Below, in pieces: positions 408 to 16,352 of a DNA stretch of 55,576 bases. The position numbers and the translations under genes are program-made. Location: the IMG/VR virus record IMGVR_UViG_3300025601_000022, positions 1 to 55,576 of that record. One strand, given 5' to 3'. Each line of letters begins with the position of its first letter. The stretch's first letter is position 1. Source of the stretch: a virus. Taxonomy: Duplodnaviria; Caudoviricetes. Below the pieces are notes generated by a model, which saw only the letters and a program-made list of their open reading frames with translations, ran no database searches and had not been told where the DNA came from.

Positions 408-436
408 GATGTTTCTTAGTAGCACGAGTTAGAAGG

Positions 437-465
437 TTGACAACCGCCAGAAAAAATGTAATAAT
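437..465 (+). promoter_or_regulatory. sigma-70/SigA promoter
   Basis: TTGACA-17-AATAAT with an extended TG, preceded by the motif at 415. Confidence 0.7.
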
Positions 466-470
466 AGAAC

Positions 471-521
471 TTGTACGGCGAGGGTATGCGACCCCTAACG
501 ACTCGCTCCTTCGCCGTACAA
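471..521 (+). ncRNA. 5' leader hairpin with CCCCU loop
   Basis: 14-bp stem TTGTACGGCGAGGG/CCTTCGCCGTACAA plus GCGA/TCGC, loop CCCCTAACGAC, starting at the predicted TSS. Confidence 0.5.
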
Positions 522-555
522 CCAAATGACATTACACTAAGACGGGAGCAAGACA

Positions 556-1050
556 ATGGGTTTAGATCAGTACTTGAGAGTAAGTAAGAACTTCGGCTCG
601 TATATCAACGACACCGAATCCGCTTCATACGACGCAATTATGGCGGCGGCAGGGCTGGATAAGATCGGTAATTCGAACAGCAAATATGTCACAGTAGAAG
701 TAACCGCACTCTACTGGCGCAAGGCAAACGCGATCCACGGCTGGTTTGTCAACGAACTGGCAGGCGGCGAGGACGAGTGCCAAGTAATTCCGGTAACCCG
801 TGAAAATATAACTACGTTGCGCGATCTTTGCGTAGACGCTATGAGTGTTCCAGCAGGTATGTCTCTTGATACTCATGCGCGTACGGTGCTTCCCCCATCC
901 GATGGGTTCTTCTTCGGTGGGTCAGAAATTGACGATTACTATATTCAAGATCTGAAGGACACAATCGAAGGTATAGACCGTATCCTCGAAGAACTTCCAG
1001 AAACCGGCGAGGGCTGGGACTGGAGTTTGACATATCAAGCATCGTGGTGA
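556..1050 (+). CDS. conserved phage protein (MGLDxY...YWRKANAIHGWF family)
   Basis: Recognisable widespread phage motif. RBS GACGGGAG. Confidence 0.85.
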   Translation: MGLDQYLRVSKNFGSYINDTESASYDAIMAAAGLDKIGNSNSKYVTVEVTALYWRKANAIHGWFVNELAGGEDECQVIPVTRENITTLRDLCVDAMSVPAGMSLDTHARTVLPPSDGFFFGGSEIDDYYIQDLKDTIEGIDRILEELPETGEGWDWSLTYQASW

Positions 1051-1056
1051 CACGGC

Positions 1057-1085
1057 TTGACAACGGGCAACCGATTCGGTAGCCT
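1057..1085 (+). promoter_or_regulatory. sigma-70/SigA promoter driving the 6C-like RNA
   Basis: TTGACA-17-TAGCCT. Confidence 0.7.
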
Positions 1086-1090
1086 CTAAT

Positions 1091-1170
1091 CTTGTTGGTA
1101 GAGAACCCCCCTTCTCCCAACAACGAGTCCCGTCAGAGTTCTCCCCCGTCCTCTGGCGGGACTCACCTTT
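1091..1170 (+). ncRNA. 6C-like small RNA (two hairpins with C-rich loops)
   Basis: Stem 1 TTGTTGG..GAGAA/TTCTC-CCAACAA with loop CCCCCC. Stem 2 is 14 bp, GAGTCCCGTCAGAG/CTCTGGCGGGACTC, with loop TTCTCCCCCGTC, then CCTTT. It has its own promoter. Confidence 0.65.
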
Positions 1171-1229
1171 CTTAGTAGCACGAAAAAACAAACGACAAAA
1201 CGACAAAAACTAGAAACCAGGAGTAGACA

Positions 1230-1373
1230 ATGCCAATCTTTATCGAAGTTGAAGACACGGACGGCACGATCTTCGAGTGGGTAACAGACAGCGAAACTTT
1301 AGACAAATTGCGCGGCCATCTTGGAAAACCGCAAAATGTCTACTCTTTAGTAGCAAGTGATCTCGCGGCTTGA
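1230..1373 (+). CDS. small hypothetical protein (47 aa)
   Basis: AGGAG RBS then MPIFIEVEDTDGTIFEW...; below the ORF-track cutoff. Confidence 0.6.
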   Translation: MPIFIEVEDTDGTIFEWVTDSETLDKLRGHLGKPQNVYSLVASDLAA

Positions 1374-1398
1374 CCGCGTGAAAGTAAACCTCTATAAT
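1370..1398 (+). promoter_or_regulatory. sigma-70/SigA promoter
   Basis: TTGACC-17-TATAAT. Confidence 0.8.
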
Positions 1399-1429
1399 AG
1401 GTAAACACCTACAAGAGATGGAGAACAAA

Positions 1430-2092
1430 ATGCCAAACTGGGTTCATAACAGCCTAAACATTACCGGAGACAAAGAGCAGATCACGCGCCTAGTCGCGCA
1501 GGTATCTGCCCCCTACACCACAAAAGGTTCTGAGTGGGCAGACGGCAAGATGATTGCGGTAGATGCCGTAGTCACAGATCAAGATTTCTCATTCTGGAAT
1601 ATCTCACGGCCTGAAGGCGAGGACTTGGGTAAGTACAACGAGTCTATGGAAGGTCGCGCAGGCGCACATCCGTTCTGGTACGGCTGGAACAACACCCACT
1701 GGAATACTAAGTGGGAAGCCTGTGATGCTACAAGTGAAGTAACTCACGGAGAGAAGGAGAGTCAGGCTTCCTACCACTTCCAAACGGCGTGGAGTCCACC
1801 AACTATCGTACTTGCTAAGTTGGCAGAGCAATACCCAACGCTAAACATGACACTCTTCTGGGAAGAAGAGCAGGGTTTCGGTGAGGACTTAGAGATTACG
1901 GGCGGGGAGATTGTCGTCAATGATTCGTGGGATATCCCAGAGACACATGAGGACACAATGAAACGGCGCGACTACTGCTATTGCGAAGATGCAGAAGATC
2001 AAGATGATATTCCGTTTGATGATTGCCCGACTAAGTTTGATCCGAATATGATAATTGACAAAAACGAAATAGAAATGGAGGCACTAATATGA
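1430..2092 (+). CDS. DUF1281/YubB-like ferredoxin-fold protein
   Basis: MPNW..N start, WYGW...WNTKW, FxTAWSPP and YPxL motifs. Start moved to MPNW after GGAG. Confidence 0.8.
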   Translation: MPNWVHNSLNITGDKEQITRLVAQVSAPYTTKGSEWADGKMIAVDAVVTDQDFSFWNISRPEGEDLGKYNESMEGRAGAHPFWYGWNNTHWNTKWEACDATSEVTHGEKESQASYHFQTAWSPPTIVLAKLAEQYPTLNMTLFWEEEQGFGEDLEITGGEIVVNDSWDIPETHEDTMKRRDYCYCEDAEDQDDIPFDDCPTKFDPNMIIDKNEIEMEALI

Positions 2093-2322
2093 GTAACGTG
2101 ACATCACTTACTTACTTCGCAACTGACGGGAACTACGGGAATGCAGGAGGTCTCACCGTTGTAGATACGTCTGCATGGACAGACCTTGACTTCGAGTTGC
2201 TAGATGGCGTGACAGATGAGTTGCGCCCTACTGCCGGTCGAACGATCTCCGATTGGATTGAGGGTGGTCGAACAGATGACTACAATACTTACTTCCAGAA
2301 ATTGGGAATAGATATTCCTTAG
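2089..2322 (+). CDS. hypothetical protein (YFAxDGNYG motif)
   Basis: Overlapping start/stop with the previous gene; GGAGG RBS. Confidence 0.75.
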   Translation: MSNVTSLTYFATDGNYGNAGGLTVVDTSAWTDLDFELLDGVTDELRPTAGRTISDWIEGGRTDDYNTYFQKLGIDIP

Positions 2323-2426
2323 TAGCACGATTTATATGATCGTCCCTGCCGTGAGGTGGGGACTTTCGTATTTAGTAGCAAAGTTGCGTATCTACTTAGT
2401 AGCAACACGCAAACTTCGATATAGAT

Positions 2427-2455
2427 TTGACAAGTACTCGAATAACCTGTAAGTT
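2427..2455 (+). promoter_or_regulatory. sigma-70/SigA promoter
   Basis: TTGACA-17-TAAGTT downstream of a terminator hairpin (2342-2366) and two motif copies. Confidence 0.65.
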
Positions 2456-2500
2456 TGCTCTTGTAAGGAAAACACCTACTAAACGACAGAAGGAAATAAA

Positions 2501-2992
2501 ATGGACGTTACTAAGTCAGTTCAGGGGATCGCCGTTTATGGCGAGTTTGTACGCCCCGGCACCACCACGCAGGTTATTGTTACTCCTGACGGACGCAACA
2601 CAGCAGGCGACAAGGTTCAGATGCACATTGTGCGCCGAACAATCAGCCTATCTACACCACGCAAGCAATGGCGTTTCAGCACACTATCTACCACTGACCC
2701 AATTACAACCTACGCAGGGTCAAACGTAGACGCTCTAAAAGAGATCTACTGCGACAATCGCATGAGGTACGCCTCGTCATTGTTCGAGCAACTGGCACGC
2801 GGAGATTGGTTCTTAGTAGCAGATCCAATTCTGGTTGAGGTCTCCAAAATGGATATGGATCATATCTCCATAAACAAGACACCTACCAAATTGCTTTATC
2901 GCATCACGCAATCCCGTCTAATGATTCCGGGATATCCAACTGACGTTGTAAATGAAGAAATAACCACAACACCTACACTTGCCACTATTTAG
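2501..2992 (+). CDS. hypothetical protein (163 aa)
   Basis: ORF with AAGGA RBS; first gene of the AAA/VWA operon. Confidence 0.8.
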   Translation: MDVTKSVQGIAVYGEFVRPGTTTQVIVTPDGRNTAGDKVQMHIVRRTISLSTPRKQWRFSTLSTTDPITTYAGSNVDALKEIYCDNRMRYASSLFEQLARGDWFLVADPILVEVSKMDMDHISINKTPTKLLYRITQSRLMIPGYPTDVVNEEITTTPTLATI

Positions 2993-3017
2993 TAGCAACG
3001 AGCCGAAGGATAAAAAA

Positions 3018-4058
3018 ATGTTATCAGAAAAGTTTGCAAATATCGGATCAGTCTCAGAGCCAACAAAGTTCTGGAGCATGGTTGTCGAAGTCGCTGCACA
3101 AATGGACGTACCAGAGTCTGCTATGAAATTGTCATCAGAGGTATTGCCACAGGGTCGGTACGTCGAACGTGCTGCAAATGGGACACGCAAGCCAAAGACT
3201 CCAAAGGCACTTCCCACCGTTGAGTCATTAGATGCAGATACCGAATATCTGCGACCTAATGGAATGATCTATCACACCCGCGAATGGGGAGAGCATGGAG
3301 ATGTCGCTGCCCTACGCAAGGCGCGTGAAGTTACGGCGCAAGCCTTCACAGAAAGTTCCGGCTCTCCAATGTTCTCGCTGCTCTACGGCGCACCCGGCTG
3401 CGGAAAGACTGCACTAGTTGAGGCTGCTTTCGGTGATAATATCTACACGATCTTGGGGACTGGCGATACCGAAGTGGCAGACATGATCGGTGGATATATT
3501 CAGACACCTAGTGGTGGCTTCGAGTGGTTGGACGGCGATCTCTTAAAGGCTGCCGAAACTGGTGGAGTCTACTTCATAGATGAGGTCGGACTCATTGATC
3601 CGAAGGTTCTCTCCATTGTGTACGGACTCATGGACGGACGGCGCGAGATCACTGTCACCGCAAACCCAGAGCGAGGCACAGTCAAGGCTCACCCAGAGTT
3701 CTATGTAATCGCTGCTACTAACCCAAACGCACCCGGCGTTCGGTTGTCAGAGGCTTTGCTGTCGCGGTTCACTATTCAGGCAGAGATGACAACAGATTGG
3801 AGTCTGTCACGCAAACTAGGCGTAAGCACCACTATGGTGACGGCTGCACAGAATCTAGCCAAGAAGCAAGCGAGCCACGAAGTTTCATGGTCTCCACAAA
3901 TGCGCGAACTACTGGCCTTCCGCGATATATCCGTATCGTTCGGAGTCCCGTTCGCCATATCAAACCTACTCGCTGCTGCACCCGAAATTGACCGCCCAGT
4001 CGTCGCTGACGTACTGACGCGAGCGTTCGGTAGTGAGTGCAAGCCTGCCAAGATCTAA
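3018..4058 (+). CDS. MoxR/CbbQ/CobS-type AAA+ ATPase
   Basis: Walker A GAPGCGKT, Walker B YFIDE, AATNP sensor, ALLSRF arginine finger. Start placed after AAGGA. Confidence 0.92.
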   Translation: MLSEKFANIGSVSEPTKFWSMVVEVAAQMDVPESAMKLSSEVLPQGRYVERAANGTRKPKTPKALPTVESLDADTEYLRPNGMIYHTREWGEHGDVAALRKAREVTAQAFTESSGSPMFSLLYGAPGCGKTALVEAAFGDNIYTILGTGDTEVADMIGGYIQTPSGGFEWLDGDLLKAAETGGVYFIDEVGLIDPKVLSIVYGLMDGRREITVTANPERGTVKAHPEFYVIAATNPNAPGVRLSEALLSRFTIQAEMTTDWSLSRKLGVSTTMVTAAQNLAKKQASHEVSWSPQMRELLAFRDISVSFGVPFAISNLLAAAPEIDRPVVADVLTRAFGSECKPAKI

Positions 4059-4177
4059 TCCTTCGATCTGGCAGATCGGGGGAGTCGGTGTAGGTGCTGA
4101 CTCCCCCACCCTTCCATTCTTAGTAGCATGGTGATACGCTTTCCATAAGTAATCGGACACTAAACAAAGGACACAAA

Positions 4178-5989
4178 ATGGGACACTACAAAATTGACGG
4201 AACACGCGCAGAGATGACAGACCCTAAGTGGTTGAGAGTTGGCAGTCAGGTTGGCGCACTCGCAAATGAGTGGTCAGATCGGTCAGACATTATTGCCTAC
4301 GTTGGATCTGGTGCTGGTGGAGAAGCCCCTGCATGTTTCATACCTGCAAGCGCAGAGGTTGAGGTGAACGTAGACGTTGCTTTCGGTTATGGCGTAGAGC
4401 CTGCCGACATTGACTTGACTACGCGGTCAGGACGCTACGAGTTTCCACGCGCTGTCGGTGCGATCTTGCACGAAGCCTTTCATGCAAAGTTCTCAAAGTG
4501 GGATCTACTAGAGGCACGAAAAGATCTAAAGAAAGATGAGTTTGAGGCTTTGATGCTGCTAGAGGAAAGTCGGATCGAAGCACACGGTATTCGGTCGAAT
4601 CCAAAAGCAAAGCCTTTCCTTGAGACTTGCGCTATGGAAATTGTTATCGCAGACGCTGGCGAACAGTTTGCAGAGATGAGTAGCACAGAGAAGGCTGCCC
4701 TACTGGTCGCATTAGTTTGGGCGCGTGTTGATCTTGGGATTCTAAAGTTTCGAGATGTCGCAAAAGTTACGGACTTGATTGACGAATACTTAGGGCTAGA
4801 TGTGATTGCAGAGTTGCGCGATCTTGCTACTAAGGCACAGAGGCATGGCTATCATTATGACGCTACCGATATGTACCCGATTGCGATTGAGTGGGCAAAG
4901 ATTGTGCGCGAGGTAGCAGAGGAAAAAGGCGAAGGTTCCCCGGACTCTGGCGAAGGCAAAGGCGAAGGCGAAGGCGAAGGCGAAGGCGAAGGCGAAGGCA
5001 ACGAGTTTATGGAAGATCTTATGGACGCATTAAACGAGGCTGCCGACAACGTATCCGTTAGTAACAGTGACTCACTTGGCGACGCGGAGACAATGGAAAA
5101 GTATGAAGAAGTTGTCAAAGAAAAGTCAGACAAATCCAAAGAGAGAAAAGATGCCAAAGAAATGGCGAGCAAAATCTTTGGATCTGGTACGGCAGAAGTT
5201 GTTGGAGCCGGAACATTCTCTACGTTGAAAGAGACCCGAAATCCACGGTCAGATGAACGGATCGCTGCAACAATTATTGCTACTAAGTTGGAGAAGGCAA
5301 AGTACCGCGACCGTGATGTGACCAAGGTGTCAAGCATTACTCCACCCGGACGGCTTCGCGCACGAACAGCGGTTCAAGGTGCTGCCATGAAATCGCGCGG
5401 AGTGATGACACAACCAGAGGCATGGCGCAAGAAGGTTCGCAAACAAACGGACGAACCCACATTGACTATCGGAGTCATGGTGGATATCTCCGGCTCAATG
5501 GGCGACGCTATGGAGCCAATGGCAACTACGGCATATGTCTTGAGCGAGGCTGCCGTCCGTGTTCAGGGCAAGGCTGCAATGGTCTACTACGGCAACACGG
5601 TATTCCCCACACTTCGACCCGGCGAGCGCATGGATCAGGTCAAGGTCTATACCGCTTCCGACGCAACCGAAAAGTTTAATGACGCTTTCCTTGCTCTTGA
5701 CGGTTCGATCAACCTGCTAAACGGCGAGGGTGCAAGACTGCTGGTAGTTGTTAGTGACGGTCACTATGTCAGGGACGAGGCGGTCGCTGCCCAACGCTGG
5801 GTCAAGCGGTGCGCTGAACAGGGCGTGGCGGTTGTATGGCTACCGTTTGACGAAGGTTCAACGGCTAGGGCATTGGCTGGTGACAACGCGGTCGTACTAT
5901 CCGGCAGGTTTAGCCCAACGGCTGCTGCCGACAAGATCGGTGCTGCATGTGAAAAAGCGATCTCAAGCGCAACGGCGCGCAAGATGTAG
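4178..5989 (+). CDS. CobT-like protein: N-terminal HEXXH zincin domain plus C-terminal VWA domain
   Basis: HEAFH and downstream EExRIE; MIDAS DISGSM and VVSDG; GE-repeat linker (GGCGAA tandem at 4949-4999); adjacent to the MoxR ATPase. Confidence 0.9.
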   Translation: MGHYKIDGTRAEMTDPKWLRVGSQVGALANEWSDRSDIIAYVGSGAGGEAPACFIPASAEVEVNVDVAFGYGVEPADIDLTTRSGRYEFPRAVGAILHEAFHAKFSKWDLLEARKDLKKDEFEALMLLEESRIEAHGIRSNPKAKPFLETCAMEIVIADAGEQFAEMSSTEKAALLVALVWARVDLGILKFRDVAKVTDLIDEYLGLDVIAELRDLATKAQRHGYHYDATDMYPIAIEWAKIVREVAEEKGEGSPDSGEGKGEGEGEGEGEGEGNEFMEDLMDALNEAADNVSVSNSDSLGDAETMEKYEEVVKEKSDKSKERKDAKEMASKIFGSGTAEVVGAGTFSTLKETRNPRSDERIAATIIATKLEKAKYRDRDVTKVSSITPPGRLRARTAVQGAAMKSRGVMTQPEAWRKKVRKQTDEPTLTIGVMVDISGSMGDAMEPMATTAYVLSEAAVRVQGKAAMVYYGNTVFPTLRPGERMDQVKVYTASDATEKFNDAFLALDGSINLLNGEGARLLVVVSDGHYVRDEAVAAQRWVKRCAEQGVAVVWLPFDEGSTARALAGDNAVVLSGRFSPTAAADKIGAACEKAISSATARKM

Positions 5990-6124
5990 CGCGTGCTACT
6001 AAGAAGGTTGTCCCCTTCGTGTCCGGCACGCGCACAAAGTCACCCCCCATGTTTAGGCGTGGGGGGTTTGACTTGTCTGACGTTAGTAGCACGACACGGC
6101 GCGCGATCAAGTTTCGATAACGGC

Positions 6125-6196: not shown

Positions 6197-6589
6197 ATGG
6201 CTATACGCAAAACGAACAAGGGAACCGTATCGGTATCCCATAAGGGCGCGCTGGTTGCAACCGGCGAGGTAGCCGAAGCAGTAGCAGTAATCAGCAACAT
6301 GCGTGCTACTAAGAAGCAATGCACGAACAAAGAAAAGACCGCCAAGGATCTAGTGGAGCAGGCTGCTGGGAACCGCGCTCGAATTATCCTCAATGAGGAC
6401 GGGGACGTAATTTGCGAGATCATCAAAGTTGTTGCCGAAACAACTAAACTTGATGACTTCATCATCGAACTAGAACGGCTGTACCCAAAAGAGTGGGCGG
6501 TACTCATGGACTCCGACCCCAGGGCGATCGAACTGACCAAGGTCGCTGCTACTAAAGAGGGAGTGAGTTACAGAGTTATGCCGAAGTAA
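6197..6589 (+). CDS. hypothetical protein (130 aa), paralog of 10149-10541
   Basis: AAGGAG RBS. MAIRKTNKGTVSVSHKGA aligns end to end with the second copy. Confidence 0.85.
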   Translation: MAIRKTNKGTVSVSHKGALVATGEVAEAVAVISNMRATKKQCTNKEKTAKDLVEQAAGNRARIILNEDGDVICEIIKVVAETTKLDDFIIELERLYPKEWAVLMDSDPRAIELTKVAATKEGVSYRVMPK

Positions 6590-6722
6590 TCGGAGCGTGA
6601 GGGGATCCCCAATCGGGATCCTCTCACAATCGGTTAGTAGCACGACACGGCGCGCAGGGGGCAGGCTTGCATTGTCGGTCAGAACTGATAAACTGGACAC
6701 ACCACCTACGAAAGGACACCAG

Positions 6723-6956: not shown

Positions 6957-7342
6957 GTCGCAGGTACGAAACAACAAAGACCGACCTAGACAACTATCGG
7001 TTAATCACGGACAAAGTGCGCGAGGATCTGCGCGAGGAGTTTGGTTTAGTTGCTACTAAGTATGACGGCGTAGAGGTGCTAACAATTAGAGGAGACCTAG
7101 GCGTATGCACAGAGTGCCTACGGAAAGACCGCGCAGAATCTGAAACAGACGTCTCCACAGTCGTCTACAACTTGATTGTGCCGGTGCAAGAGGATCACGG
7201 CGTGGACTGGACAGAAGGCGAGACAGTCTGTGATGAGTGCGGTGAGATTAGTTGGTGTTCAACAATGGACGAACTTGATGAGTCCAACCGTCAAGATGCA
7301 GGCGAGGCGCGCTACGAACAGATGAAAGATGAGGGGTGGTGA
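6953..7342 (+). CDS. hypothetical Zn-binding protein (two CxxC pairs)
   Basis: CTEC and CDEC motifs; coupled ATGA overlap; AGGGGA RBS. Confidence 0.75.
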   Translation: MSRRYETTKTDLDNYRLITDKVREDLREEFGLVATKYDGVEVLTIRGDLGVCTECLRKDRAESETDVSTVVYNLIVPVQEDHGVDWTEGETVCDECGEISWCSTMDELDESNRQDAGEARYEQMKDEGW

Positions 7343-7473
7343 ACACGGTGACTCTCACGGAGAAGGGAGAAAACGTGCTACTAAGAGTATGGGCAACCGT
7401 CAAGCTGACGGGCGCGATAGGTGGGATCCTTGCGATCATGTTGGTTGCAGGCGCGATAGAAGTGGGTGGTTGA
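7339..7473 (+). CDS. small membrane protein (44 aa)
   Basis: GTGA overlap; hydrophobic C-terminal stretch. Confidence 0.55.
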   Translation: MNTVTLTEKGENVLLRVWATVKLTGAIGGILAIMLVAGAIEVGG

Positions 7474-7474
7474 A

Positions 7475-7747
7475 ATGAACGGATATGCAGTTGCTACTAA
7501 GAGAGTGAACTTCGAGATCGAGAACGGATCCGAAGTCTGGGAGATCATGATGCAGGTCATGAGTGACGGAATGACGTTTGTATTCGCAGAAACAGAATAT
7601 GAATCGCCATTCGGAGTACAGCGCGACATTCACGACGGACTGGACTTCGATACCGCGCCGACAGTTGCAGACATTCTGATGCGGATAGACGCGGAGCGCG
7701 AGAATCTATGGGATCAAGAGCAAGAGAAATCCCAAGCACCTGATTAG
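7475..7747 (+). CDS. hypothetical protein
   Basis: ORF directly follows the previous stop; ends before a hairpin at 7758-7779. Confidence 0.7.
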   Translation: MNGYAVATKRVNFEIENGSEVWEIMMQVMSDGMTFVFAETEYESPFGVQRDIHDGLDFDTAPTVADILMRIDAERENLWDQEQEKSQAPD

Positions 7748-7843
7748 TAGCACGACAGGGGAAGGAGAAATCCTTCCCCGTTGCGCCGGTCGCTCAGAAA
7801 AAATGTTTTTTCTGGACAGACCTTTCTTTTTTTTTGCTTAGGC

Positions 7844-7872: not shown

Positions 7873-7914
7873 CTTAGTAGCACAAACAATCACCTACAAC
7901 GAAGGAGAGACATC

Positions 7915-8220: not shown

Positions 8221-8485
8221 ACTTGCATCATGGCTAATCGTGCTACTAAGAAGGACAGGGGGCGCACCTTGTACGGGGTAGGTGCGCCCGGAAACTTCGC
8301 GCTCAATACTCACGCGCCACGCTTTGCCGACAGGCGCACGAAACGAAACAGATCACGCGCCGAAATCGAGCGCAAAGCAGTTAATGAGTCTAAGTCTAGT
8401 TAGTAGCAGGCAGTCTTGCACTTGTCAGAGAGTACTGATACGCTGGATACATACCGCAAAGCGCGGTCAAGATAGGGGACATCAG

Positions 8486-8686
8486 ATGAGCATCACTCAA
8501 GCACAGAACACGGCGATTGTTTCCGCTGGTTTCACGGTAACTAATTTCAAGAGTCCTGCCATAATGTGCGCGACTCAGCCACTGGAAACATTTAGCGCAC
8601 CTGACTGGCACTCACTCGCTCTTTACGCGATAAAGTTTCAACTGTGCGAGTGCGAGAACCACCAACCAATTACATTGTGCTACTAA
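8486..8686 (+). CDS. hypothetical protein (66 aa)
   Basis: Promoter TTGCAC-17-TACGCT (8416-8444); RBS ATAGGGGACATC. Confidence 0.65.
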   Translation: MSITQAQNTAIVSAGFTVTNFKSPAIMCATQPLETFSAPDWHSLALYAIKFQLCECENHQPITLCY

Positions 8687-8946: not shown

Positions 8947-8974
8947 TCATGCTACTAAGAGAAGGGGAAACGAA

Positions 8975-9284: not shown

Positions 9285-9338
9285 CTTAGTAGCACAAAAT
9301 GATCAGCGAAATACGCGGATCGAAAGGGGCGGGGAGAT

Positions 9339-9548: not shown

Positions 9549-9549
9549 T

Positions 9550-9888
9550 ATGGCATTCGACATGAGTCTGGACTACGCCAATGGGACATGTTTACAGGGG
9601 CGCATAGACATAACTAGAGCGCGTATCGAAGAGGTGTTTGGCGCACCTCTGTACGACAGCACCGACAATGACGAAAAAGTCATGACAGAGTGGGGCATCA
9701 TGTTTGATGATGGAACATGCGCGACTATCTATGACTGGAAACGCTACGAAATGGGCGCGGTTGGATTCCATGAAGTTTATGACTGGCACATAGGTGGAAC
9801 TAGCCATGATGCTATGGATAAGGTTACAGCGGTGCTACTAAAGAGAGGGGGTGAGCGAGATGACTGGAGTTACATTAACAATTCATGA
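9550..9888 (+). CDS. conserved phage protein (EW..ATIYDWK..WHIGG)
   Basis: Recognisable motif; AAGGGGG RBS. Confidence 0.8.
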   Translation: MAFDMSLDYANGTCLQGRIDITRARIEEVFGAPLYDSTDNDEKVMTEWGIMFDDGTCATIYDWKRYEMGAVGFHEVYDWHIGGTSHDAMDKVTAVLLKRGGERDDWSYINNS

Positions 9889-10024: not shown

Positions 10025-10148
10025 TTAGATCTACTTAGTAGCACGACAAACACGCGGAACCTAATTTAGGTTTAGGCTTGCACATGTCAGTCACTTAGTG
10101 TATTGTTCTACTTATACGGAAAGCCCGTACAAAAGTGAAGGGGTCAAG

Positions 10149-10541
10149 ATGACTATCAAAAAGACAAACAAGGGCACGGTTAGCGTTTCGCACCGTGGCG
10201 CAGTAGTGGCAGACAGCGCACTTATCGCTGCTATCGCTCAAGTGAGTAACATGCGTGCTACTAAGAGAGAGTGCACTAAGGCTGAGGACGCTGCCAAGGT
10301 TGCAATCAAAGTTGCCACGGGAGATCGTGCGCGCCTTATCCTCAATGTCGAGGGAGACATCATCTGTGAAGTCAAAGAAGTTGCAACAACTAGCGTGAGC
10401 GTAGATGGGTTTCTCGAAGCACTAGAGGGACTCTACCCCGACATCTGGGCAACGCTCATGGACAGAGATCCCAAAGCAGTTGAGACCGCTAAGACCGCTG
10501 CTACCAAGCATGACACCTACCTTAAGGTGTTGCCTAAGTAA
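10149..10541 (+). CDS. hypothetical protein (130 aa), paralog of 6197-6589
   Basis: Promoter TTGCAC-17-TATTGT (10078-10106), AAGGGG RBS and terminator hairpin at 10551-10577. Confidence 0.85.
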   Translation: MTIKKTNKGTVSVSHRGAVVADSALIAAIAQVSNMRATKRECTKAEDAAKVAIKVATGDRARLILNVEGDIICEVKEVATTSVSVDGFLEALEGLYPDIWATLMDRDPKAVETAKTAATKHDTYLKVLPK

Positions 10542-10897
10542 TTAGGACTCGGAGAGGGGGACACGCGCCCCCTCTCCACACCATAACAGTGTGCTACTAA
10601 GAGAGAGACATCATGACAACAGACAAAGCAAAGACGATTACAGGGGTAGTCCTATCCTTGGCCATAGTTGGGACGCTGATAGGCATGGTTATGTCCATGC
10701 AAAGTCACGGACTACTTTGGTAGCACGCGAAAAATAGAGGGGAGTCGCGGAGATTCGTGGCTCCCGTTTAGTTTCGAGGAACCAGAAAAAATGTTTTTTC
10801 TGACATCCCCGCCGCGCGGTCAGACTTGACAGATAATTATTTTCATGATGTAATTTATCTATCACTCCAAGGGGGGTGATCAATGAAAGGACACAGC

Positions 10898-11272: not shown

Positions 11273-11441
11273 TCCTAGTCAAGGGGAGAGAGTGCATGTC
11301 TGACATTCTCTCCCCCTACACTTTAGTAGCACGATTTATATGCTACTAAGAAAGACACGCAAAGATTGCTCTCAGTTTGCATATGTCAGTGCATTGTGAT
11401 ATTGTTACACCACAAGCACAAACGAGCGAGAGGGGCACAAA

Positions 11442-11624: not shown

Positions 11625-11650
11625 TCGTGCTACTAAGAGAAGGGGAGATC

Positions 11651-11767
11651 ATGACAACACAGACACAGACACTTTGCAAGGATTGCAATATGTATCCTGC
11701 GATTCAGATTCAGCCGGAATACACAGAGCGTTGCCGGCACTGCCACAATAAATTGTGGAAGAAATAA
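11651..11767 (+). CDS. 38-aa Zn-finger peptide
   Basis: AAGGGGAG RBS; CKDC...CRHC. Confidence 0.55.
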   Translation: MTTQTQTLCKDCNMYPAIQIQPEYTERCRHCHNKLWKK

Positions 11768-12246
11768 TCATGCTACTAAGAGGGAGCACGATTGCGTTTA
11801 AGTGCGTAGAGTGTTTGCGGACGTGGACAGTATTTGATGACGCTCAAGAATGGGCGTATGGTCACGATTGCGAAGGGGGGTGATCGTGGAGATAGCCCAA
11901 GCGGTACTTGCGGGGATTCTAATGGGATTCGGCGCGGGGATCATATTCATTCGACGATGCTACTAAGAGAGAGAGACAGGCAAAATGTGTGTTTGACTTG
12001 CAATTGTCAGATGACTAATGTAGACTAAAGACATGCCAACACGGGCACAGAGATAGGGGACATCATGGCACCGGCTCAAGATTACGTGGAGACCTGCGGA
12101 TACTGCACCAATGAGTATCTTTACTCAAACCTACGCACCAATAATGAGGGGGACGCAATTTGCCCCCCCTGTCGGAAAGAGGGGGAGTGAGCGAGATGAT
12201 TTATGTTCCCATTATTCATGCTACTAAGAGAGAGAGTGACAAAGAG

Positions 12247-12519: not shown

Positions 12520-12721
12520 GTATTAGTAGCGAGGGGGCGTGGCGAGAGTCGCGCCCCTAAGTTGCCGCCAGCTTAGAAAAAATGTTTTTTCTGAGAGCCA
12601 CGATACGCGGTCAGATTTGCAATTAAATATATTGTAAAGTAAAGTAAGGTAAAGTTAAATAGACAGCCACGCAGGTGCTCGCCACCTACGCTACTAAGAG
12701 ATAGAGGGAATACTAATAATA

Positions 12722-13297: not shown

Positions 13298-13350
13298 GAT
13301 CATATTGTGTAGTGAAGTGGAGTGCTACTAAGTAGTAGCACGACACTCAC

Positions 13351-13423
13351 GCCCTCGTAGTTCAACGGACAGAATAACCGGCTTCTACCCGGTAGGTTGG
13401 GGGTTCGATTCCCTCCGAGGGCA
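13351..13423 (+). tRNA. tRNA-Arg (anticodon UCU, reads AGA)
   Basis: Acceptor stem GCCCTCG/CGAGGGC, D-arm GTTC/GAAT, anticodon arm ACCGG-CTTCTAC-CCGGT, T-loop TTCGATT. CCA is not encoded. Confidence 0.95.
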
Positions 13424-13426
13424 CAC

Positions 13427-13455
13427 TTGACAAACAAAGTAATGTCATATATTAT
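13427..13455 (+). promoter_or_regulatory. sigma-70/SigA promoter
   Basis: TTGACA-17-TATTAT. Confidence 0.8.
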
Positions 13456-13659
13456 TGTACTAACAACACAACAACTAAGGAGTGAGTCACATGATTTAAG
13501 TAAAGGAGTGAGGGTGGGGATACTCCAAAACCGCCAGCCAAAGGGACATAATCCCCTAGGCACAGAACACAGATAGGGGACAATAAGTTCACGGTAGTGG
13601 GAGGTGCAGAAGAACCCTCCCTCTACTGCTTGCTACTAACTACAAGAAGGGGTAAGACA

Positions 13660-13947
13660 ATGAGACTTCAAATGAACAGCGCAGAAGAGTTAGGACTCAT
13701 GCTCAGTCAAGATGAGGTAAGCGTACTTGCTACGGCATTAGGTGGGCTGCTAAGCACACTAAACCATGAGATCGAAGAGATCGGAGATACCGCAAAGGAA
13801 GATCAAAGTAATCTTATGATGATGCTCTCCATGAAAATGGATACGGAGATAATGTTTCTCAGTCTTTGGACGGCTCTAGGATTGGGCGAGGAAAAACTTG
13901 CCATGCTACTAAAGACAACACAGATAGGTGAGGGGGAGAGTGAGTGA
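13660..13947 (+). CDS. hypothetical protein
   Basis: AAGGGG RBS; helical, acidic sequence. Confidence 0.7.
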   Translation: MRLQMNSAEELGLMLSQDEVSVLATALGGLLSTLNHEIEEIGDTAKEDQSNLMMMLSMKMDTEIMFLSLWTALGLGEEKLAMLLKTTQIGEGESE

Positions 13948-13948
13948 A

Positions 13949-14116
13949 ATGAGAAAGTTTAATAAAGAAAATTATGGTGAAGACTTCTACGGTGTAATAA
14001 CCCACTGTGAGGTGAGGGTTAATTGGATCAACTGCCCTCTCCATAACAAAACAGGTTGCAAGGGAACGGTTTGTGCGATTTGTAGAGTAACCGACTTCGA
14101 TTGTGAAGGTGAGTGA
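13949..14116 (+). CDS. small Cys-rich protein
   Basis: Several Cys/His pairs; GGGGGAG upstream. Confidence 0.55.
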   Translation: MRKFNKENYGEDFYGVITHCEVRVNWINCPLHNKTGCKGTVCAICRVTDFDCEGE

Positions 14117-14117
14117 A

Positions 14118-14339
14118 ATGGTAGATCGCATAGAAAGTACGAAAACGGTCATGTTTGTAGGTGACTACTTTGCGCTGACAACTACGGTCATACTAGATGA
14201 GGGGCTACGTTACGAGGACGAAGAGGACGAGGACTTTGCCATAAGGATTGCCACCGTATTCCTATCAGAGCATTACGGGTTTGATGACATAGATGAAAAG
14301 TCCAATCAGATAGGTATCGTGGACGAGGACATGCCATAG
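14118..14339 (+). CDS. acidic hypothetical protein
   Basis: AAGGTGAG RBS; ORF track. Confidence 0.7.
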   Translation: MVDRIESTKTVMFVGDYFALTTTVILDEGLRYEDEEDEDFAIRIATVFLSEHYGFDDIDEKSNQIGIVDEDMP

Positions 14340-14357
14340 ATGCGGTACACTTTGACT

Positions 14358-14463
14358 TCTAAGTAGTAGCATGTAATCCCCTTTCCGTGCTCCTTAGATG
14401 TGGGAACCCCTTACCCACGAAGGCTGGCCTCTGGATACTTCCCAGAGGTCAGCCGTCTTTATT
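14358..14463 (+). ncRNA. three-hairpin small RNA with CCCCUU loops
   Basis: -10 TACACT at 14346. Hairpins: TCTAAG..AGCATG/CGTGCT..CTTAGA (loop TAATCCCCTTTC), GTGGG/CCCAC (loop AACCCCTTA), and a 13-bp GGCTGGCCTCTGG/CCAGAGGTCAGCC followed by a T-rich tail. Confidence 0.55.
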
Positions 14464-14525
14464 GTGGATGTGGAGCTGAGAAAAAACGTTTTTTCTATGA
14501 TACAGATTGGATGTACGCTATTCAC

Positions 14526-14786
14526 ATGTCTAACATCGAGATCGTTCAGAGTTCCTTTCACAGTAATGGTCACGCTGCCCCCTTCTACGCGGCAATAGTC
14601 GATGACCCAGACACAGGAGAAACAAAGATCGTCATTATGTTCGATGAGCCTGAATACACAGCCGTACTATCGTTGGATGCGCTACTTAATGACGAGGACA
14701 TTTCTCATGACAAGCATAATTCGAGAGGAGATATCTACGATTCTAAGTTGAGAGATGTTTTGTGGTATCCGGAGTCCGGGTCATAG
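14526..14786 (+). CDS. hypothetical protein, probably leaderless
   Basis: TACGCT -10 lies 6 nt before the ATG; FHxNG..AAPFY motif. Confidence 0.7.
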   Translation: MSNIEIVQSSFHSNGHAAPFYAAIVDDPDTGETKIVIMFDEPEYTAVLSLDALLNDEDISHDKHNSRGDIYDSKLRDVLWYPESGS

Positions 14787-14787
14787 G

Positions 14788-15345
14788 GTGACAACCATTA
14801 TTGGAGTTCAAGGATCTTCATGGGCTGTTATGGGCGCTGACTCACAGGTGAGTGAGGAGTCAAAAAAATTTCGATTGCCATCATCGTTTAGTAAGTTGAT
14901 TTCTAATGGTGAGTTTCTCATAGGGACAGCAGGAGATGTTCGCGCCGTCAATATTCTTACCCATACATTCGTGCCACCGATTGTAGGGAAGATCCCAGAT
15001 GAGGGGCTGGATAAGTTTATGGTATCCCGTTTTGTTCCTGCTCTCAAAGTTTGCTTTGATAATAATTTCTATGGCAAAGACAACGAGCATGACTCAGTAT
15101 TTATTGTTGCAGTTCGCGGGGTGTTATATGAAGTAGGGGGAGGCTATGAATGTATTCGAGATGATACGGGGTTATATTCGGTAGGTAGTGGATCCTCATA
15201 CGCATTAGGCGCGTTGCATGTCTTAAACAAGAAGCCCAGGACATTAAGCGGTGCTAAGGTTATGATCAAAGAGGCATTGCAAGCGGCAAGCAGATACGAT
15301 ACAGGTACATCGGATCCAGTTACTATTATCGTACAAAGATATTAG
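14788..15345 (+). CDS. proteasome beta/HslV-like Ntn-hydrolase protease
   Basis: GTG start gives (M)TTIIG with a catalytic N-terminal Thr; ADSQ, conserved K, GTAG and SVGSGSSYALGAL. Confidence 0.9.
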   Translation: MTTIIGVQGSSWAVMGADSQVSEESKKFRLPSSFSKLISNGEFLIGTAGDVRAVNILTHTFVPPIVGKIPDEGLDKFMVSRFVPALKVCFDNNFYGKDNEHDSVFIVAVRGVLYEVGGGYECIRDDTGLYSVGSGSSYALGALHVLNKKPRTLSGAKVMIKEALQAASRYDTGTSDPVTIIVQRY

Positions 15346-15357
15346 TAGCAGTCTCGG

Positions 15358-15480
15358 TTACTTGCCGTTGCGTTTGGTTGGCCTGAGGCAAACAATCTCC
15401 AAGAATATGCTCAGGATCGCTGCGCCTAGCGCAAAGGCTCCCAAACCTATTCCTACGGTTATTGCGTAGTCCCATGTCAT
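15358..15480 (-). CDS. 40-aa single-TM peptide
   Basis: MTWDYAITVGIGLGAFALGAAILSIFLEIVCLRPTKRNGK on the opposite strand. Confidence 0.4.
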   Translation of the reverse strand: MTWDYAITVGIGLGAFALGAAILSIFLEIVCLRPTKRNGK

Positions 15481-15589
15481 GTGACCTATCATGACAGGAG
15501 TATATGACACTTTAAGCGTGGTGCGCTAGGTATTATCGTTTGGATAGTGTAGGATAGTGCTAACACAACGACAACACATAGGGGACACC

Positions 15590-15742
15590 ATGAAAGATGT
15601 ACGATTGACACTCAGAGGCAAGATTGTATTGGCTATGGCATTGCTAGGGCTAGTGAGTGCTGCTATCTACGCCGTTACACCAGAGGAATGCAGGTCGGGC
15701 GAGAGTCGTCAAAGTGCCTACTGTGCGGAATATCTACGCTAG
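15590..15742 (+). CDS. small membrane/secreted protein
   Basis: ATAGGGGAC RBS; RLTxRG followed by a TM segment and two Cys. Confidence 0.65.
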   Translation: MKDVRLTLRGKIVLAMALLGLVSAAIYAVTPEECRSGESRQSAYCAEYLR

Positions 15743-15751
15743 GATGAGATC

Positions 15752-15904
15752 ATGATGAAGCGTATAGTTTGGGCTGCCGTAGTTTCGGCATTGCTCGCCG
15801 TTGTATCTGTCGTCCTTGCGGTGCTAGGACATGAGTCAGAGTCTATTGCATTTGGTATGGCTGCCGTAGTGTCTGCAATTCTCTCCAATAGGGAACGCGT
15901 ATAA
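15752..15904 (+). CDS. small two-TM membrane protein
   Basis: MMKRIVWAAVVSALLAVVSVV...; hydrophobic. Confidence 0.5.
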   Translation: MMKRIVWAAVVSALLAVVSVVLAVLGHESESIAFGMAAVVSAILSNRERV

Positions 15905-15920
15905 CGCTTATACTAATCTC

Positions 15921-16331
15921 ATGACTGATGCCCCGACACCTAATGAAAGCCCTAAGCCTGCCCCTACGCCCTTAAATGTAGTGCCAGCTAGTAAGAGTGA
16001 TGGTGAGAGTGTTGTCGCTCCTAAGCCCGTTCCTGCCCCGCCTAAGCCCGTTGCGGTAGTGTCCTCGATTGGATCCGTGGATGTTGTAGTGGGATCACTT
16101 GTATATCAAGCACGCGCCCTTCGAAGTATTAGCGTGGCAGTCGTGCAAGATAGATTGACAGAGTTAGGCTACGGGGATGCGCGTGGAGATCTCCGTGGAT
16201 GGCTATCTGATGGGACAGTAAAGGCTCTGTCAGCGTTTCAGAGTGCATCAGGACTGTTGGTAACAGGTATAGCCGATATGGACACCGTTAAGGCTCTGCT
16301 CAAAGATACAGGGGCAACCGTAACCGATTAG
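15921..16331 (+). CDS. peptidoglycan-binding domain protein (PG_binding_1-like), leaderless
   Basis: VQxRLxxLGY...T.KALSAFQ..SGL.VTGIAD..T; TATACT 6 nt before the ATG; Pro-rich N-terminus. Confidence 0.8.
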   Translation: MTDAPTPNESPKPAPTPLNVVPASKSDGESVVAPKPVPAPPKPVAVVSSIGSVDVVVGSLVYQARALRSISVAVVQDRLTELGYGDARGDLRGWLSDGTVKALSAFQSASGLLVTGIADMDTVKALLKDTGATVTD

Positions 16332-16352
16332 TATTAGTAGCACTATAAGTGA

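What the first reader, a model, noticed from the sequence alone, without database searches (positions are those of the whole stretch)
415..16343. Dense network of about 44 asymmetric TAGTAGCA sites with orientation-specific placement
Seen: the 8-mer occurs about 44 times in 16.4 kb, where roughly 0.5 would be expected by chance, and about twice in the other 39 kb. The + orientation (CTTAGTAGCACG) sits on stop codons, after terminators, shortly upstream of -35 boxes, or directly over the TSS (7873, 9285). The - orientation (GTGCTACTAAGAGA) sits just before RBSs (8677, 8949, 10591, 11627, 11770, 12218) or is built into codons (A-T-K or L-L-R). It is kept at the same position in two paralogous genes. 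Known analogues are the stoperators of cluster A mycobacteriophages and the start-associated sequences of cluster K. Inference: a single protein coats the whole early region, as a global repressor/roadblock, an early-to-late switch, or a DNA-organising or protective factor. I do not recognise this motif.
Basis: partly seen in the sequence, partly recalled or inferred. Interest (0 to 1): 0.85.

Follow-up and report, generated by a model that had tools for sequence, protein, structure and literature searches.

The report
Phage gene block studded with one 9-mer
A 16-kb block of small genes in an uncultured phage of actinobacteria carries 44 exact copies of one short DNA word, in both orientations, and a second, diverged phage keeps the same word, so it is most likely the landing site of one still unidentified DNA-binding factor.

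Summary
TAGTAGCA occurs 46 times in the window, against about 2 expected. Of these, 44 lie in 417-16342 (21 '+', 23 '-'), and the true core is the 9-mer TTAGTAGCA.

I found a second, collinear phage contig, G001. It has 57% GC against about 48%, and its proteins are 32-80% identical. It carries 45 copies in all: 44 in the syntenic 15-kb block and only one in the 9 kb to the left. No other relative has the word, and it is rare in 401 Actinomycetes genomes.

Copies inside genes are held by selection on the DNA:
- 15 in-gene copies are seen, against 0.84 expected after synonymous shuffling.
- Three copies sit at the same codons in both phages, with 12 of 12 codons identical against a background of about 40%.
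- In two of these three the residues themselves changed to fit the word.

Two thirds of the copies lie outside coding interiors: on stop codons, after terminator hairpins, just upstream of -35 boxes, over two predicted start sites, or directly 5' of ribosome-binding sites.

My best reading (about 0.4) is an orientation-free duplex-DNA site for one sequence-specific protein that controls transcription of this block. It works like stoperators or P1 C1 operators but is not a member of either. No binder was identified. The rivals are a cassette-recombination boundary, an RNA-level signal, a nuclease or nick tag, and a phage-specific promoter.

The parts
417..16342 (.). Motif-dense block: about 39 small '+' strand genes plus an AAA ATPase and a CobT-like gene, one tRNA, and 44 copies of TAGTAGCA
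   Evidence: syntenic to G001 9121-24521
417..424 (+). copy 10 nt after the stop of 165-407 and 12 nt upstream of -35 TTGACA (437)
1173..1180 (+). copy after a strong hairpin (-28 kcal); same place as G001 9851
1348..1355 (+). copy inside ORF 1230-1373 (L-V-A), 14 nt upstream of -35 TTGACC (1370)
2320..2327 (+). first TAG is the stop of 2089-2322; same place as G001 11022
2373..2380 (+). copy after a hairpin; same place as G001 11085
2397..2404 (+). copy 22 nt upstream of -35 TTGACA (2427)
2814..2821 (+). in-gene copy in 2501-2992 (L-V-A frame)
2990..2997 (+). first TAG is the stop of 2501-2992
3713..3720 (-). in-gene copy in the AAA ATPase gene (A-A-T-N = GCT GCT ACT AAC); identical codons in G001 12494, other codons in 4 of 4 relatives without the motif
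4121..4128 (+). copy after a hairpin (-24.7 kcal); same place as G001 12904
4825..4832 (-). in-gene copy in the CobT-like gene (L-A-T-K); same in G001 13645; relatives have other residues
5278..5285 (-). in-gene copy in the CobT-like gene (I-A-T-K); same in G001 14125; relatives have other residues
5994..6001 (-). copy 5 nt after the stop of 4178-5989
6084..6091 (+). copy after a hairpin, 33 nt upstream of -35 TTGCAT (6125)
6304..6311 (-). in-gene copy (N-M-R-A-T-K) in paralog 6194-6589
6547..6554 (-). in-gene copy (A-A-T-K) near the end of 6194-6589
6635..6642 (+). copy after a hairpin, 24 nt upstream of -35 TTGCAT (6667)
7051..7058 (-). in-gene copy (V-A-T-K) in 6953-7342
7376..7383 (-). copy in the small ORF 7329-7478, 5 nt before an in-frame ATG
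7492..7499 (-). copy just inside 7475-7747
7745..7752 (+). first TAG is the stop of 7475-7747
7875..7882 (+). copy over the predicted start site of promoter TTGCAC-17-TATTCT (7844)
8241..8248 (-). copy at the start of ORF 8230-8403 (N-R-A-T-K)
8401..8408 (+). first TAG is the stop of 8230-8403; 7 nt upstream of -35 TTGCAC (8416)
8678..8685 (-). its TAA is the stop of 8486-8686; 14 nt before SD and ATG 8701
8950..8957 (-). copy 16 nt before SD and ATG 8975
9287..9294 (+). copy over the predicted start site of promoter TTGCAT-17-TATTCT (9256)
9833..9840 (-). copy 18 nt before SD and ATG 9860
10036..10043 (+). copy 12 nt after the stop of 9860-10024, 34 nt upstream of -35 TTGCAC (10078)
10256..10263 (-). 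in-gene copy (N-M-R-A-T-K) in paralog 10149-10541, same place as 6304
10592..10599 (-). copy 12 nt before ATG 10613
11324..11348 (.). inverted pair ('+' 11324, '-' 11341) after a hairpin and upstream of promoter 11377
11628..11635 (-). copy 3 nt after a TAA stop, 14 nt before ATG 11651
11771..11778 (-). copy 3 nt after the TAA stop of 11651-11767
11958..11965 (-). copy 32 nt upstream of -35 TTGCAA (11998); in strain variants X7 and X10 homology resumes here
12219..12226 (-). copy 19 nt before ATG 12247
13323..13340 (.). everted pair ('-' 13323, '+' 13333) directly 5' of tRNA-Arg (13351-13424)
13631..13638 (-). copy 20 nt before SD and ATG 13660
13904..13911 (-). copy near the end of 13660-13947; one search pairs it with the GTG at 13940, 27 nt on (my gene model starts at ATG 13949, 36 nt on)
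14364..14371 (+). copy 25 nt after the stop of 14118-14339
15343..15350 (+). first TAG is the stop of 14755-15345 (proteasome/HslV-like); same in G001 23033
16335..16342 (+). last copy, 4 nt after the stop of 15921-16331 and before a terminator hairpin; same place as G001 24514

Best explanation
TTAGTAGCA is the recognition site, on duplex DNA, of one sequence-specific factor. The factor is most likely a phage-encoded protein that binds an asymmetric site as a single unit. It is encoded either outside the two partial contigs or by one of the unassigned small genes.

The phage keeps about one site per 370 bp along a bounded block of about 16 kb of small non-structural genes. It puts a site wherever local constraints allow:
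- as the TAG stop of a gene;
- in the tail of a terminator;
- next to or over a promoter;
- fused to the purine run of a ribosome-binding site;
- inside long genes, by choosing codons or even residues.

A bound factor would sit over start sites, next to -35 boxes and at gene junctions. It would therefore set the transcription of the whole block at once, by repression, insulation or a temporal switch.

Shown: the sites, their exactness, their bounds, their conservation, and selection on the DNA. Inferred: that a protein binds, that it is the phage's own, and that the outcome is transcriptional control.
For: 1. Non-random and bounded. The block holds 44 of the window's 46 copies against about 2 expected. 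In G001, 44 of 45 copies lie in 9121-24521, and the 9 kb to its left, also small '+' strand genes, hold one.
2. Orientation-free on a block transcribed in one direction (21/23 in the window, 23/22 in G001). This fits a duplex site rather than an RNA signal.
3. Selection on the DNA. There are 15 in-gene copies against 0.84 (max 4) in 300 synonymous shuffles. Three in-gene copies are shared with G001 with 12 of 12 codons identical, where identical codons at identical residues are otherwise 112/270 and 148/385. The same A-A-T-N is spelt with other codons in 4 of 4 relatives without the motif, and two CobT-like sites needed residue changes. G001 adds copies as GTA GTA GCA where the window has GTC GTC GCT.
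4. Exact and in place at orthologous junctions while the flanks diverge. At 21 orthologous gene ends, 6 have a copy in both phages, 5 only in the window, 4 only in G001 and 6 in neither, yet the totals stay at 44-45. That is turnover at constant number.
5. Contact with transcription signals. Two copies lie over predicted start sites in the window and one directly after a -10 in G001 (19108). Five G001 copies lie 3-6 nt upstream of a -35. Of 16 candidate promoters in the window block, 13 have a copy within reach.
6. 29 of 44 copies lie outside coding interiors, which make up 19.5% of the block (p = 2.6e-11). 22 of 38 gene junctions hold a copy.
7. The word is rare in possible hosts. Only 138 of 401 Actinomycetes genomes have any copy, the most is 16, and the count is mostly below the reversed-word control. 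A factor reading it would find the phage, not the host.
8. The DUF6011 gene lies inside the block in G001, with a copy at each end (15786, 16359). In the window it lies outside the block, inverted, with no copy. The word goes with the block, not with the gene.
Against: - No binder was found. Pfam and PHROGs give no DNA-binding family for any gene of the block. The only clear HTH nearby are a TerS-like protein at 19532 and a GerE/sigma-4-like protein in G001 (3840-4208), outside the window's reach.
- The promoters are my own consensus matches. The generic promoter scan finds no more sites than shuffles do (24 against 20.7).
- The distance from a copy to the -35 varies from 7 to 34 nt in the window, so the word is not a fixed promoter element.
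- 42 exact copies against 10 one-mismatch variants is unusually sharp for a transcription-factor site. It would also fit recognition by a nuclease, a methylase or base pairing.
- Only two genomes carry the word, and they are related, so shared ancestry inflates the apparent conservation.
- Timing of expression is unknown. No RNA data could be laid.
Confidence: 0.4

Rival explanations
1. The word is a cassette boundary. It is a short shared sequence, or the core site of a recombinase, at which small genes are gained, lost and shuffled in a hyperplastic region. Its conservation would then be a by-product of, or selected for, mosaicism.
For: - Copies flank most small genes: 22 of 38 junctions.
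- G001 has an extra cassette (9160-9850) bracketed by a 9121+/9160- pair and 9851+, where the window has a single copy at 1173.
- Gene order differs between the two phages in the middle of the block, and the window has a duplicated gene.
- In strain variants X7 and X10, a 2-kb replacement rejoins the reference exactly at the copy at 11958. Several other cassette-sized indels occur.
Against: - In-gene copies made by codon and residue choice, in conserved genes that are not shuffled, have no place in this model.
- 9 bp is very short for homologous exchange.
- No recombinase is seen in either contig.
- Most listed indel ends (for example 13939->14109, 5847->6965) are not at copies.
- A homology block that starts at a conserved word is expected whatever the word does.
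Confidence: 0.15
2. The word acts in RNA. UGCUACUAAGAG would be a leader element next to the SD, acting as a translational operator or enhancer. CUCUUAGUAGCA would be a 3'-end element. The two could also pair to close or process each mRNA.
For: - 8 of 23 '-' copies in the window and 9 of 21 in G001 lie 12-27 nt before an SD plus start codon (dropping the rows at distance 1-2).
- 6 of 21 '+' copies follow terminator-like hairpins.
- Several gene units are flanked by '-' at the 5' end and '+' at the 3' end.
- Cluster K SAS are a precedent for a leader word of unknown role.
Against: - Both orientations are selected inside genes.
- One RNA-binding factor cannot read both strands.
- Complementarity between flanking '-' and '+' copies does not extend beyond the 9-10 nt core (read), which is too short for RNase III-type duplexes.
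- Copies upstream of -35 boxes would not be transcribed from those promoters.
- No Rfam family matches.
Confidence: 0.12
3. The word is a tag read by a nuclease, nickase or DNA-modifying enzyme. It could be Chi-like protection against a host exonuclease, T5-like site-specific nicks, or a methylation target that marks this part of the genome.
For: - Very sharp exactness: 42 exact copies against 10 one-mismatch.
- An 8-9-nt asymmetric word, selected also inside genes and rare in host genomes. These are traits of Chi, KOPS and uptake words (recalled).
- The block borders a repeat-rich non-coding region next to a TerS-like gene, which may be a genome end.
Against: - There is no orientation bias (21/23), whereas Chi-like and KOPS-like words are polar (recalled).
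- The strong preference for gene junctions and promoters is not expected of such tags.
- No nuclease or methylase gene is seen in the block.
- Nicks could not be tested because only contigs were on hand.
Confidence: 0.1
4. The word is a single-block promoter for a phage-encoded sigma factor or RNA polymerase. '-' copies would drive the downstream genes and '+' copies would drive antisense RNAs.
For: - Many '-' copies lie just upstream of genes.
- Single 8-mer promoters exist, such as T4 late promoters (recalled).
- G001 encodes a small sigma-4/GerE-like protein.
Against: - A start site 6-8 nt after the word would remove the adjoining SD from the mRNA.
- Half of the copies would fire antisense into the upstream gene or a hairpin.
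- In-gene copies would be harmful.
- No conserved second block is seen.
Confidence: 0.05

Closest known systems
Stoperators and operators of cluster A mycobacteriophages (L5 gp71-type immunity repressor)
   Same: They are many (more than twenty) asymmetric sites spread over a phage genome, in promoters and short intergenic spaces, read by one protein as a monomer (passages of PMC9283540). Here too the copies lie on stop codons, at junctions and at promoters.
   Different: - Stoperators are 13-mers, and their orientation follows the direction of transcription. Reversing a site abolishes repression. Here a 9-mer core occurs 21 '+' and 23 '-' on a block transcribed one way.
- 15 copies here lie inside genes.
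- The sites are confined to one 16-kb block.
- No repressor homologue was found.
Start-associated sequences (SAS/ESAS) of cluster K mycobacteriophages
   Same: It is a repeated asymmetric word confined to the non-structural half of the genome, placed just before start codons and absent from the host genome. Its function is unknown (passages of PMC3203893). The '-' copies fused to the SD look alike.
   Different: SAS are 13 bp, contain the SD itself, lie 3-7 bp from the start codon and are nearly all in one orientation. Here the word lies 5' of the SD at 12-27 nt. Half of the copies are in the other orientation, at gene ends and promoters, and a third are inside genes.
C1 repressor operators of phage P1 (recalled, no call)
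   Same: It is an asymmetric operator word scattered at many places in a large phage genome, in either orientation and singly or as overlapping pairs, read by one repressor.
   Different: The P1 operators are a 17-bp word, with fewer sites that sit at promoters and are spread genome-wide. They are not packed into one block or built into coding sequence. I recalled these details and did not check them here.
Genome 'words' such as Chi, KOPS, DUS/USS and matS (recalled, no call)
   Same: They are exact 8-12-nt words, over-represented, tolerated or selected inside genes through codon choice. Some occur as inverted pairs that form terminators, and some define a chromosome domain.
   Different: Those belong to cellular chromosomes. 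Chi and KOPS are polar. None is known, to my recall, as a phage-internal block marker.
Repeated promoter-leader cassettes in the same block of related phages (Actinomycetia phage DSL-LC01, L200-L204)
   Same: They occupy the same syntenic block around the AAA and CobT-like genes. There are 17-20 copies of a repeated signal between small genes.
   Different: There the repeat is a one-orientation promoter (…AAAGATGTTATAAT) plus a leader (AACGACGAAAGGACA), not a both-orientation 9-mer. TAGTAGCA occurs 3 times in 129 kb of DSL-LC01, equal to the control.

Membership tests
Cluster A stoperator/operator system | Many copies of one asymmetric word dispersed in promoters and short intergenic spaces | tested here: met
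   There are 44 copies. 29 lie outside coding interiors, and 22 of 38 junctions hold a copy.
Cluster A stoperator/operator system | Orientation of the sites follows the direction of transcription | tested here: not met
   There are 21 '+' and 23 '-' copies on a block whose genes all read on '+'. The feature is taken from PMC9283540.
Cluster A stoperator/operator system | Cognate immunity repressor (HTH plus stoperator domain) encoded by the phage | tested here: inconclusive
   No HTH regulator is seen among the block's genes in Pfam or PHROGs. The contig is about 38% of a genome, so the gene may lie elsewhere. No direct comparison with gp71 was made.
Cluster K start-associated sequences | Word lies 3-7 bp upstream of start codons and contains the SD core | tested here: not met
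   Only 8 of 23 '-' copies precede a start, at 12-27 nt, with the SD downstream of the word. None of the 21 '+' copies does.
Cluster K start-associated sequences | Nearly all copies in one orientation | tested here: not met
   21 '+' against 23 '-'.
Cluster K start-associated sequences | Confined to the non-structural part of the genome and absent or rare in host genomes | tested here: met
   Two copies lie in 39 kb of structural genes. There are at most 16 copies per genome in 401 Actinomycetes genomes. The true host is unknown.
Polar genome words (Chi, KOPS) | Strong strand or orientation bias relative to a DNA end or to replication | tested here: not met
   21/23 in the window and 23/22 in G001.
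Site-specific nick sites (T5-like) | Molecule ends or nicks at the word in virion DNA | not testable with these tools
   All 23 runs that hold the sequence are kept as contigs. No raw reads were available.
Known RNA families (Rfam) | Match to a curated covariance model | tested here: not met
   Only tRNA-Arg and a chance hit in a GT repeat are found in 1-19600.

The most novel reading that the evidence does not exclude
The word is a self-mark that defines a genomic domain of the phage, a viral counterpart of matS-, KOPS- or uptake-type chromosome words. It is orientation-free, rare in the host, written into intergenic DNA and into codons alike, and kept at constant number while single sites turn over. 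It would be read by a phage factor that coats, compacts, protects or times the whole block, for example the first DNA to act after entry, rather than regulating single promoters.
Probability: 0.15. Interest if true: 0.8.

Novelty: new variant of a known kind. Interest (0 to 1): 0.6.

Why it matters
Dense networks of one short site are how some phages (L5, P1) switch whole genomes with a single protein, but few such systems are known and most are one-orientation.

Here a 9-mer is kept in two diverged, uncultured phages of actinobacteria. It is bounded to one block, free of orientation, and strong enough as a selective force to change codons and residues of conserved enzymes.

That gives a clean, testable handle: a 9-bp bait for finding a new DNA-reading protein and for understanding how large actinophages run their blocks of small unknown genes. 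It is also a caution for annotation. Several 'ORFs' and 'paralogous genes' in such blocks are regulatory modules, and 6 of 39 stop codons in my gene set belong to the word.

Tried and rejected
Searches for further carriers of the word:
- No near-identical phage record exists for either half of the window.
- 80 loci of portal relatives have at most 3 copies each.
- DSL-LC01 has 3 copies in 129 kb, equal to the control.
- The CobT-like protein scan found only 5 distant loci without the word.
- The AAA alignment scan found only G001 in viral contigs and nothing in metagenome contigs.
- The inverted-pair pattern gave 114 stretches in metagenome contigs and 120 in genome contigs. The few multi-copy hits (L341, L389, L333, L474) are palindromic hairpin repeats or AT-rich repeats of another kind.

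Analogous words in relatives. High k-mer counts in L011, L026, L033 and L051 are tandem arrays, not dispersed sites.

Search for a binder:
- Pfam and PHROGs on about 60 ORFs gave no DNA-binding family in the block.
- The Atlas gave only hypothetical viral clusters for the paralog.

Literature. The full-text search for the word with 'phage' gave one unrelated phage promoter table, where the word lies in the flank. The search for the reverse word gave only primers and the like in its listing of 15 of 139 papers. I therefore found no description of this motif in print in those two searches. Supplements were not seen.

RNA evidence. No RNA holder was listed among the 23 runs.

Population variants. 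Read laying showed only 40 of more than 1000 variant places, so a test for depletion of variants inside copies could not be made.

Other closed or uninformative calls:
- The generic promoter and terminator scan was no better than shuffles.
- The nearer-stop versus nearer-start test did not separate the orientations.

Full report
WHAT THE WINDOW IS

The window is a whole IMG/VR virus record of 55,576 b. It is linear, and CheckV estimates it at 38% of a genome.
- Positions 19.5-55.5 kb hold siphovirus structural genes. These are a TerS-like HTH protein, the portal, a Dps-like protein, a 3770-aa polyvalent protein, a MuF-like 1634-aa protein, the major head and tail proteins and the tape measure.
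- The portal's nearest named relatives are Actinomycetia phage DSL-LC01 (68% identity) and 190-kb Microbacterium and Arthrobacter phages.
- Positions 1-16.4 kb hold about 39 small '+' strand genes, an AAA (MoxR/CobS-like) ATPase, a 603-aa CobT-like protein, a proteasome/HslV-like subunit, a peptidoglycan-binding protein and one tRNA-Arg.

THE OBSERVATION

TAGTAGCA occurs 46 times against 1.95 expected. Of these, 44 copies lie in 417-16342 (21 '+', 23 '-') and 2 lie in the other 39 kb.
- The core is TTAGTAGCA (42 of 44 copies have the leading T), with weak flanks tcTCTTAGTAGCAcga.
- The word is unusually sharp. The block has 42 exact 9-mers and only 10 one-mismatch variants, where shuffles give 3.35.

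A SECOND CARRIER

Portal relatives (80 loci), DSL-LC01 and CobT-like relatives do not carry the word.

A scan of viral contigs for an inverted pair of the 9-mer gave 69 stretches. One of them had 25 copies in 14.5 kb. That record, G001, is 27,908 b with 57% GC, and CheckV puts it at 21% of a genome.
- It has 45 copies of the 8-mer (23 '+', 22 '-').
- It has 34 copies of the 9-mer, against 0 for the reversed-word control.
- It is collinear with window 541-16331 and with 19523-20050, at 32-80% protein identity.
- 44 of its 45 copies lie in 9121-24521. The 9 kb to the left, also small '+' strand genes, hold one.
- In both phages the last copy follows the peptidoglycan-binding gene and precedes a terminator.

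Further scans found no other carrier.

SELECTION ACTS ON THE DNA WORD

There are 15 copies inside my gene calls, against 0.84 (max 4) after 300 synonymous shuffles.

In the AAA gene the sensor residues A-A-T-N are spelt GCT GCT ACT AAC in the window and in G001. They are spelt with other codons in DSL-LC01, L200, L201 and L202; the last two are nearly the same sequence.

In the CobT-like gene two copies (L-A-T-K, I-A-T-K) sit at the same columns in both carriers, where the four relatives have other residues.

At these three shared copies 12 of 12 codons are identical. Across the two genes, identical codons at identical residues are 112/270 and 148/385.

G001 has extra in-gene copies spelt GTA GTA GCA where the window has GTC GTC GCT.

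In orthologous intergenic regions the word is exact and in place while the flanks diverge. Among 21 orthologous gene ends, 6 have a copy in both phages, 5 only in the window, 4 only in G001 and 6 in neither. Single sites turn over while the total stays at 44-45.

WHERE THE COPIES SIT

29 of 44 copies are outside coding interiors, which make up 19.5% of the block (p = 2.6e-11). 22 of 38 gene junctions hold a copy.

The '+' copies:
- 5 give the TAG stop of the upstream gene.
- 6 of 21 follow strong hairpins.
- 2 lie over the predicted start sites of two TTGCAy-17-TATTCT promoters.
- Most of the others lie 7-34 nt upstream of a -35.
- In G001, five lie 3-6 nt upstream of a -35.

The '-' copies:
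- 8 of 23 in the window and 9 of 21 in G001 lie 12-27 nt before an SD plus start codon, read as TGCTACTAAGAGAGGGG.
- One gives a TAA stop.
- One G001 copy directly follows a -10 (19108).
- The rest are in codons as A-T-K or L-L-R.

Several pairs form inverted or everted repeats (11324/11341, 13323/13333; G001 9121/9160, 16359/16410, 17123/17134, 20143/20158).

Caveats:
- The gene calls and promoters are my own.
- The generic promoter scan is no better than shuffles.
- A crude test does not separate the orientations by nearest boundary (p = 0.66).

My reading is that orientation is chosen by local economy. The word offers TAG TAG in one sense and TAA plus a purine run in the other. I do not think the two orientations have two functions.

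WHAT IT IS NOT

- It is not a host repeat. Only 138 of 401 Actinomycetes genomes have any copy, the most is 16, and counts are mostly below the control.
- It is not a known RNA family.
- It is not a sigma-A -10 or -35 element. No TAnnnT lies in the word in either sense (read).
- It is not the repeated signal of related phages. Those have 17-20 one-orientation promoter-leader cassettes in the same block.

MECHANISM

The word is free of orientation, bounded to a block, selected in codons, rare in the host, and in contact with start sites, -35 boxes and junctions. These traits are best explained by one sequence-specific protein that reads duplex DNA and sets transcription of the whole block (confidence about 0.4).

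The binder is not identified. No DNA-binding family is found in the block. The only candidates are a GerE/sigma-4-like protein upstream in G001 and whatever lies in the missing 60-80% of the genomes.

Rivals:
- Cassette-boundary recombination site (0.15). It is supported by a G001 cassette bracketed by copies and by a strain variant that rejoins at the copy at 11958. It is opposed by the in-gene copies.
- RNA leader, 3'-end or pairing signal (0.12). It is opposed by selection of both strands and by the lack of complementarity beyond the core.
- Nuclease, nick or modification tag (0.1). Sharpness fits, polarity does not, and nicks could not be tested.
- Phage-specific promoter (0.05).

COMPARISON WITH KNOWN SYSTEMS

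The word works most like L5-type stoperators and P1 C1 operators: one protein, many asymmetric sites. It is not a stoperator system, because those sites follow the direction of transcription and lose function when reversed (PMC9283540, passages).

The copies next to ribosome-binding sites resemble cluster K SAS. SAS are one-orientation, contain the SD and lie 3-7 bp from the start (PMC3203893, passages).

The exactness, the codon embedding and the block limit recall cellular genome words such as Chi, KOPS, DUS and matS. I recalled these and did not check them.

I file it as a new variant of a known kind.

Noticed in passing
window 18400-19200: This is a repeat-rich non-coding stretch just upstream of a TerS-like HTH gene (19532-20050). 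It holds several copies of atgcggatgcggtt, a GTAT tandem run, and many tgtcag/tgtcaa-type short repeats. It may be a packaging site, a genome end or an origin.
   Followed up: no
window 6125-12030 (promoters at 6667, 8416, 10078, 11377, 11998): Several predicted promoters read TTGCAy-n-TGTCAG(T)G-N8-TAnnnT. As I recall it, this is the form of the actinobacterial PafBC-dependent RecA-NDp DNA-damage promoter. The motif sequence is recalled; the paper read names the promoter but does not print it in the passages seen. The block also encodes a proteasome/HslV-like subunit (14755-15345).
   Followed up: partly
window 16396-18406, minus strand: Three or four small leftward genes, one with a DUF6011 end, each lie behind a TTGACA-17-TAxxCT promoter and converge on the motif block. 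None carries the word. In G001 the DUF6011 gene lies inside the block on the '+' strand with a copy at each end.
   Followed up: partly
window 16975-17095: An imperfect tandem array of about 8-nt units (cgctcacg / cctacgcg) lies between two minus-strand genes.
   Followed up: no
window 24354-35666 and 36808-41712: These are a 3770-aa protein with helicase, ParB-like, peptidase-like and other parts, and a 1634-aa MuF/portal-associated fusion. Both look like polyvalent proteins packed into the head.
   Followed up: no
window 22850-23311: A Dps/ferritin-like protein is encoded between the portal gene and the head genes.
   Followed up: no
window 13378-13389 (inside tRNA-Arg) and 13939-14109: Strain variants in runs X14 and X17 carry 431 other letters inside the tRNA gene and lack the small gene 13949-14116. 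Other cassette-sized differences occur at 5847-6965, 2028-3245 and 9943-11968.
   Followed up: partly
window 165-16331: TAG is the stop of 14 of 39 genes in my gene set (TGA 13, TAA 12). Five of the TAG stops and one TAA stop belong to the word.
   Followed up: yes
L276+L009 (phage DSL-LC01, record 24-43 kb); L200, L202-L204: In these related phages, the same block around the AAA and CobT-like genes carries repeated one-orientation cassettes: a promoter (…AAAGATGTTATAAT in DSL-LC01, GTATAATGGA in L202/L203) and a leader (AACGACGAAAGGACA). DSL-LC01 has 16-20 copies of each. Other relatives repeat GGGGTAAAA before genes.
   Followed up: partly
L011 1-900; L026 630-745; L051 650-1040; L033: Relatives carry long tandem arrays of 6-8-nt units (GCCAGGT, GCCAGTGC, CACAGG, CACA/CACATT) a few kb upstream of the portal gene.
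   Followed up: no
L274 3840-4208, minus strand (G001): A small (122-aa) GerE/LuxR, sigma-region-4-like HTH protein is encoded 5 kb left of the motif block. It is the only clear sequence-specific DNA binder seen near the block in either carrier.
   Followed up: partly
L275, G001 about 21480-21535: A tRNA-like 3' end (ggttcgagtcctgcc…) is followed at once by a '-' copy. This parallels the pair of copies just before tRNA-Arg in the window. I did not run the tRNA finder on G001.
   Followed up: no
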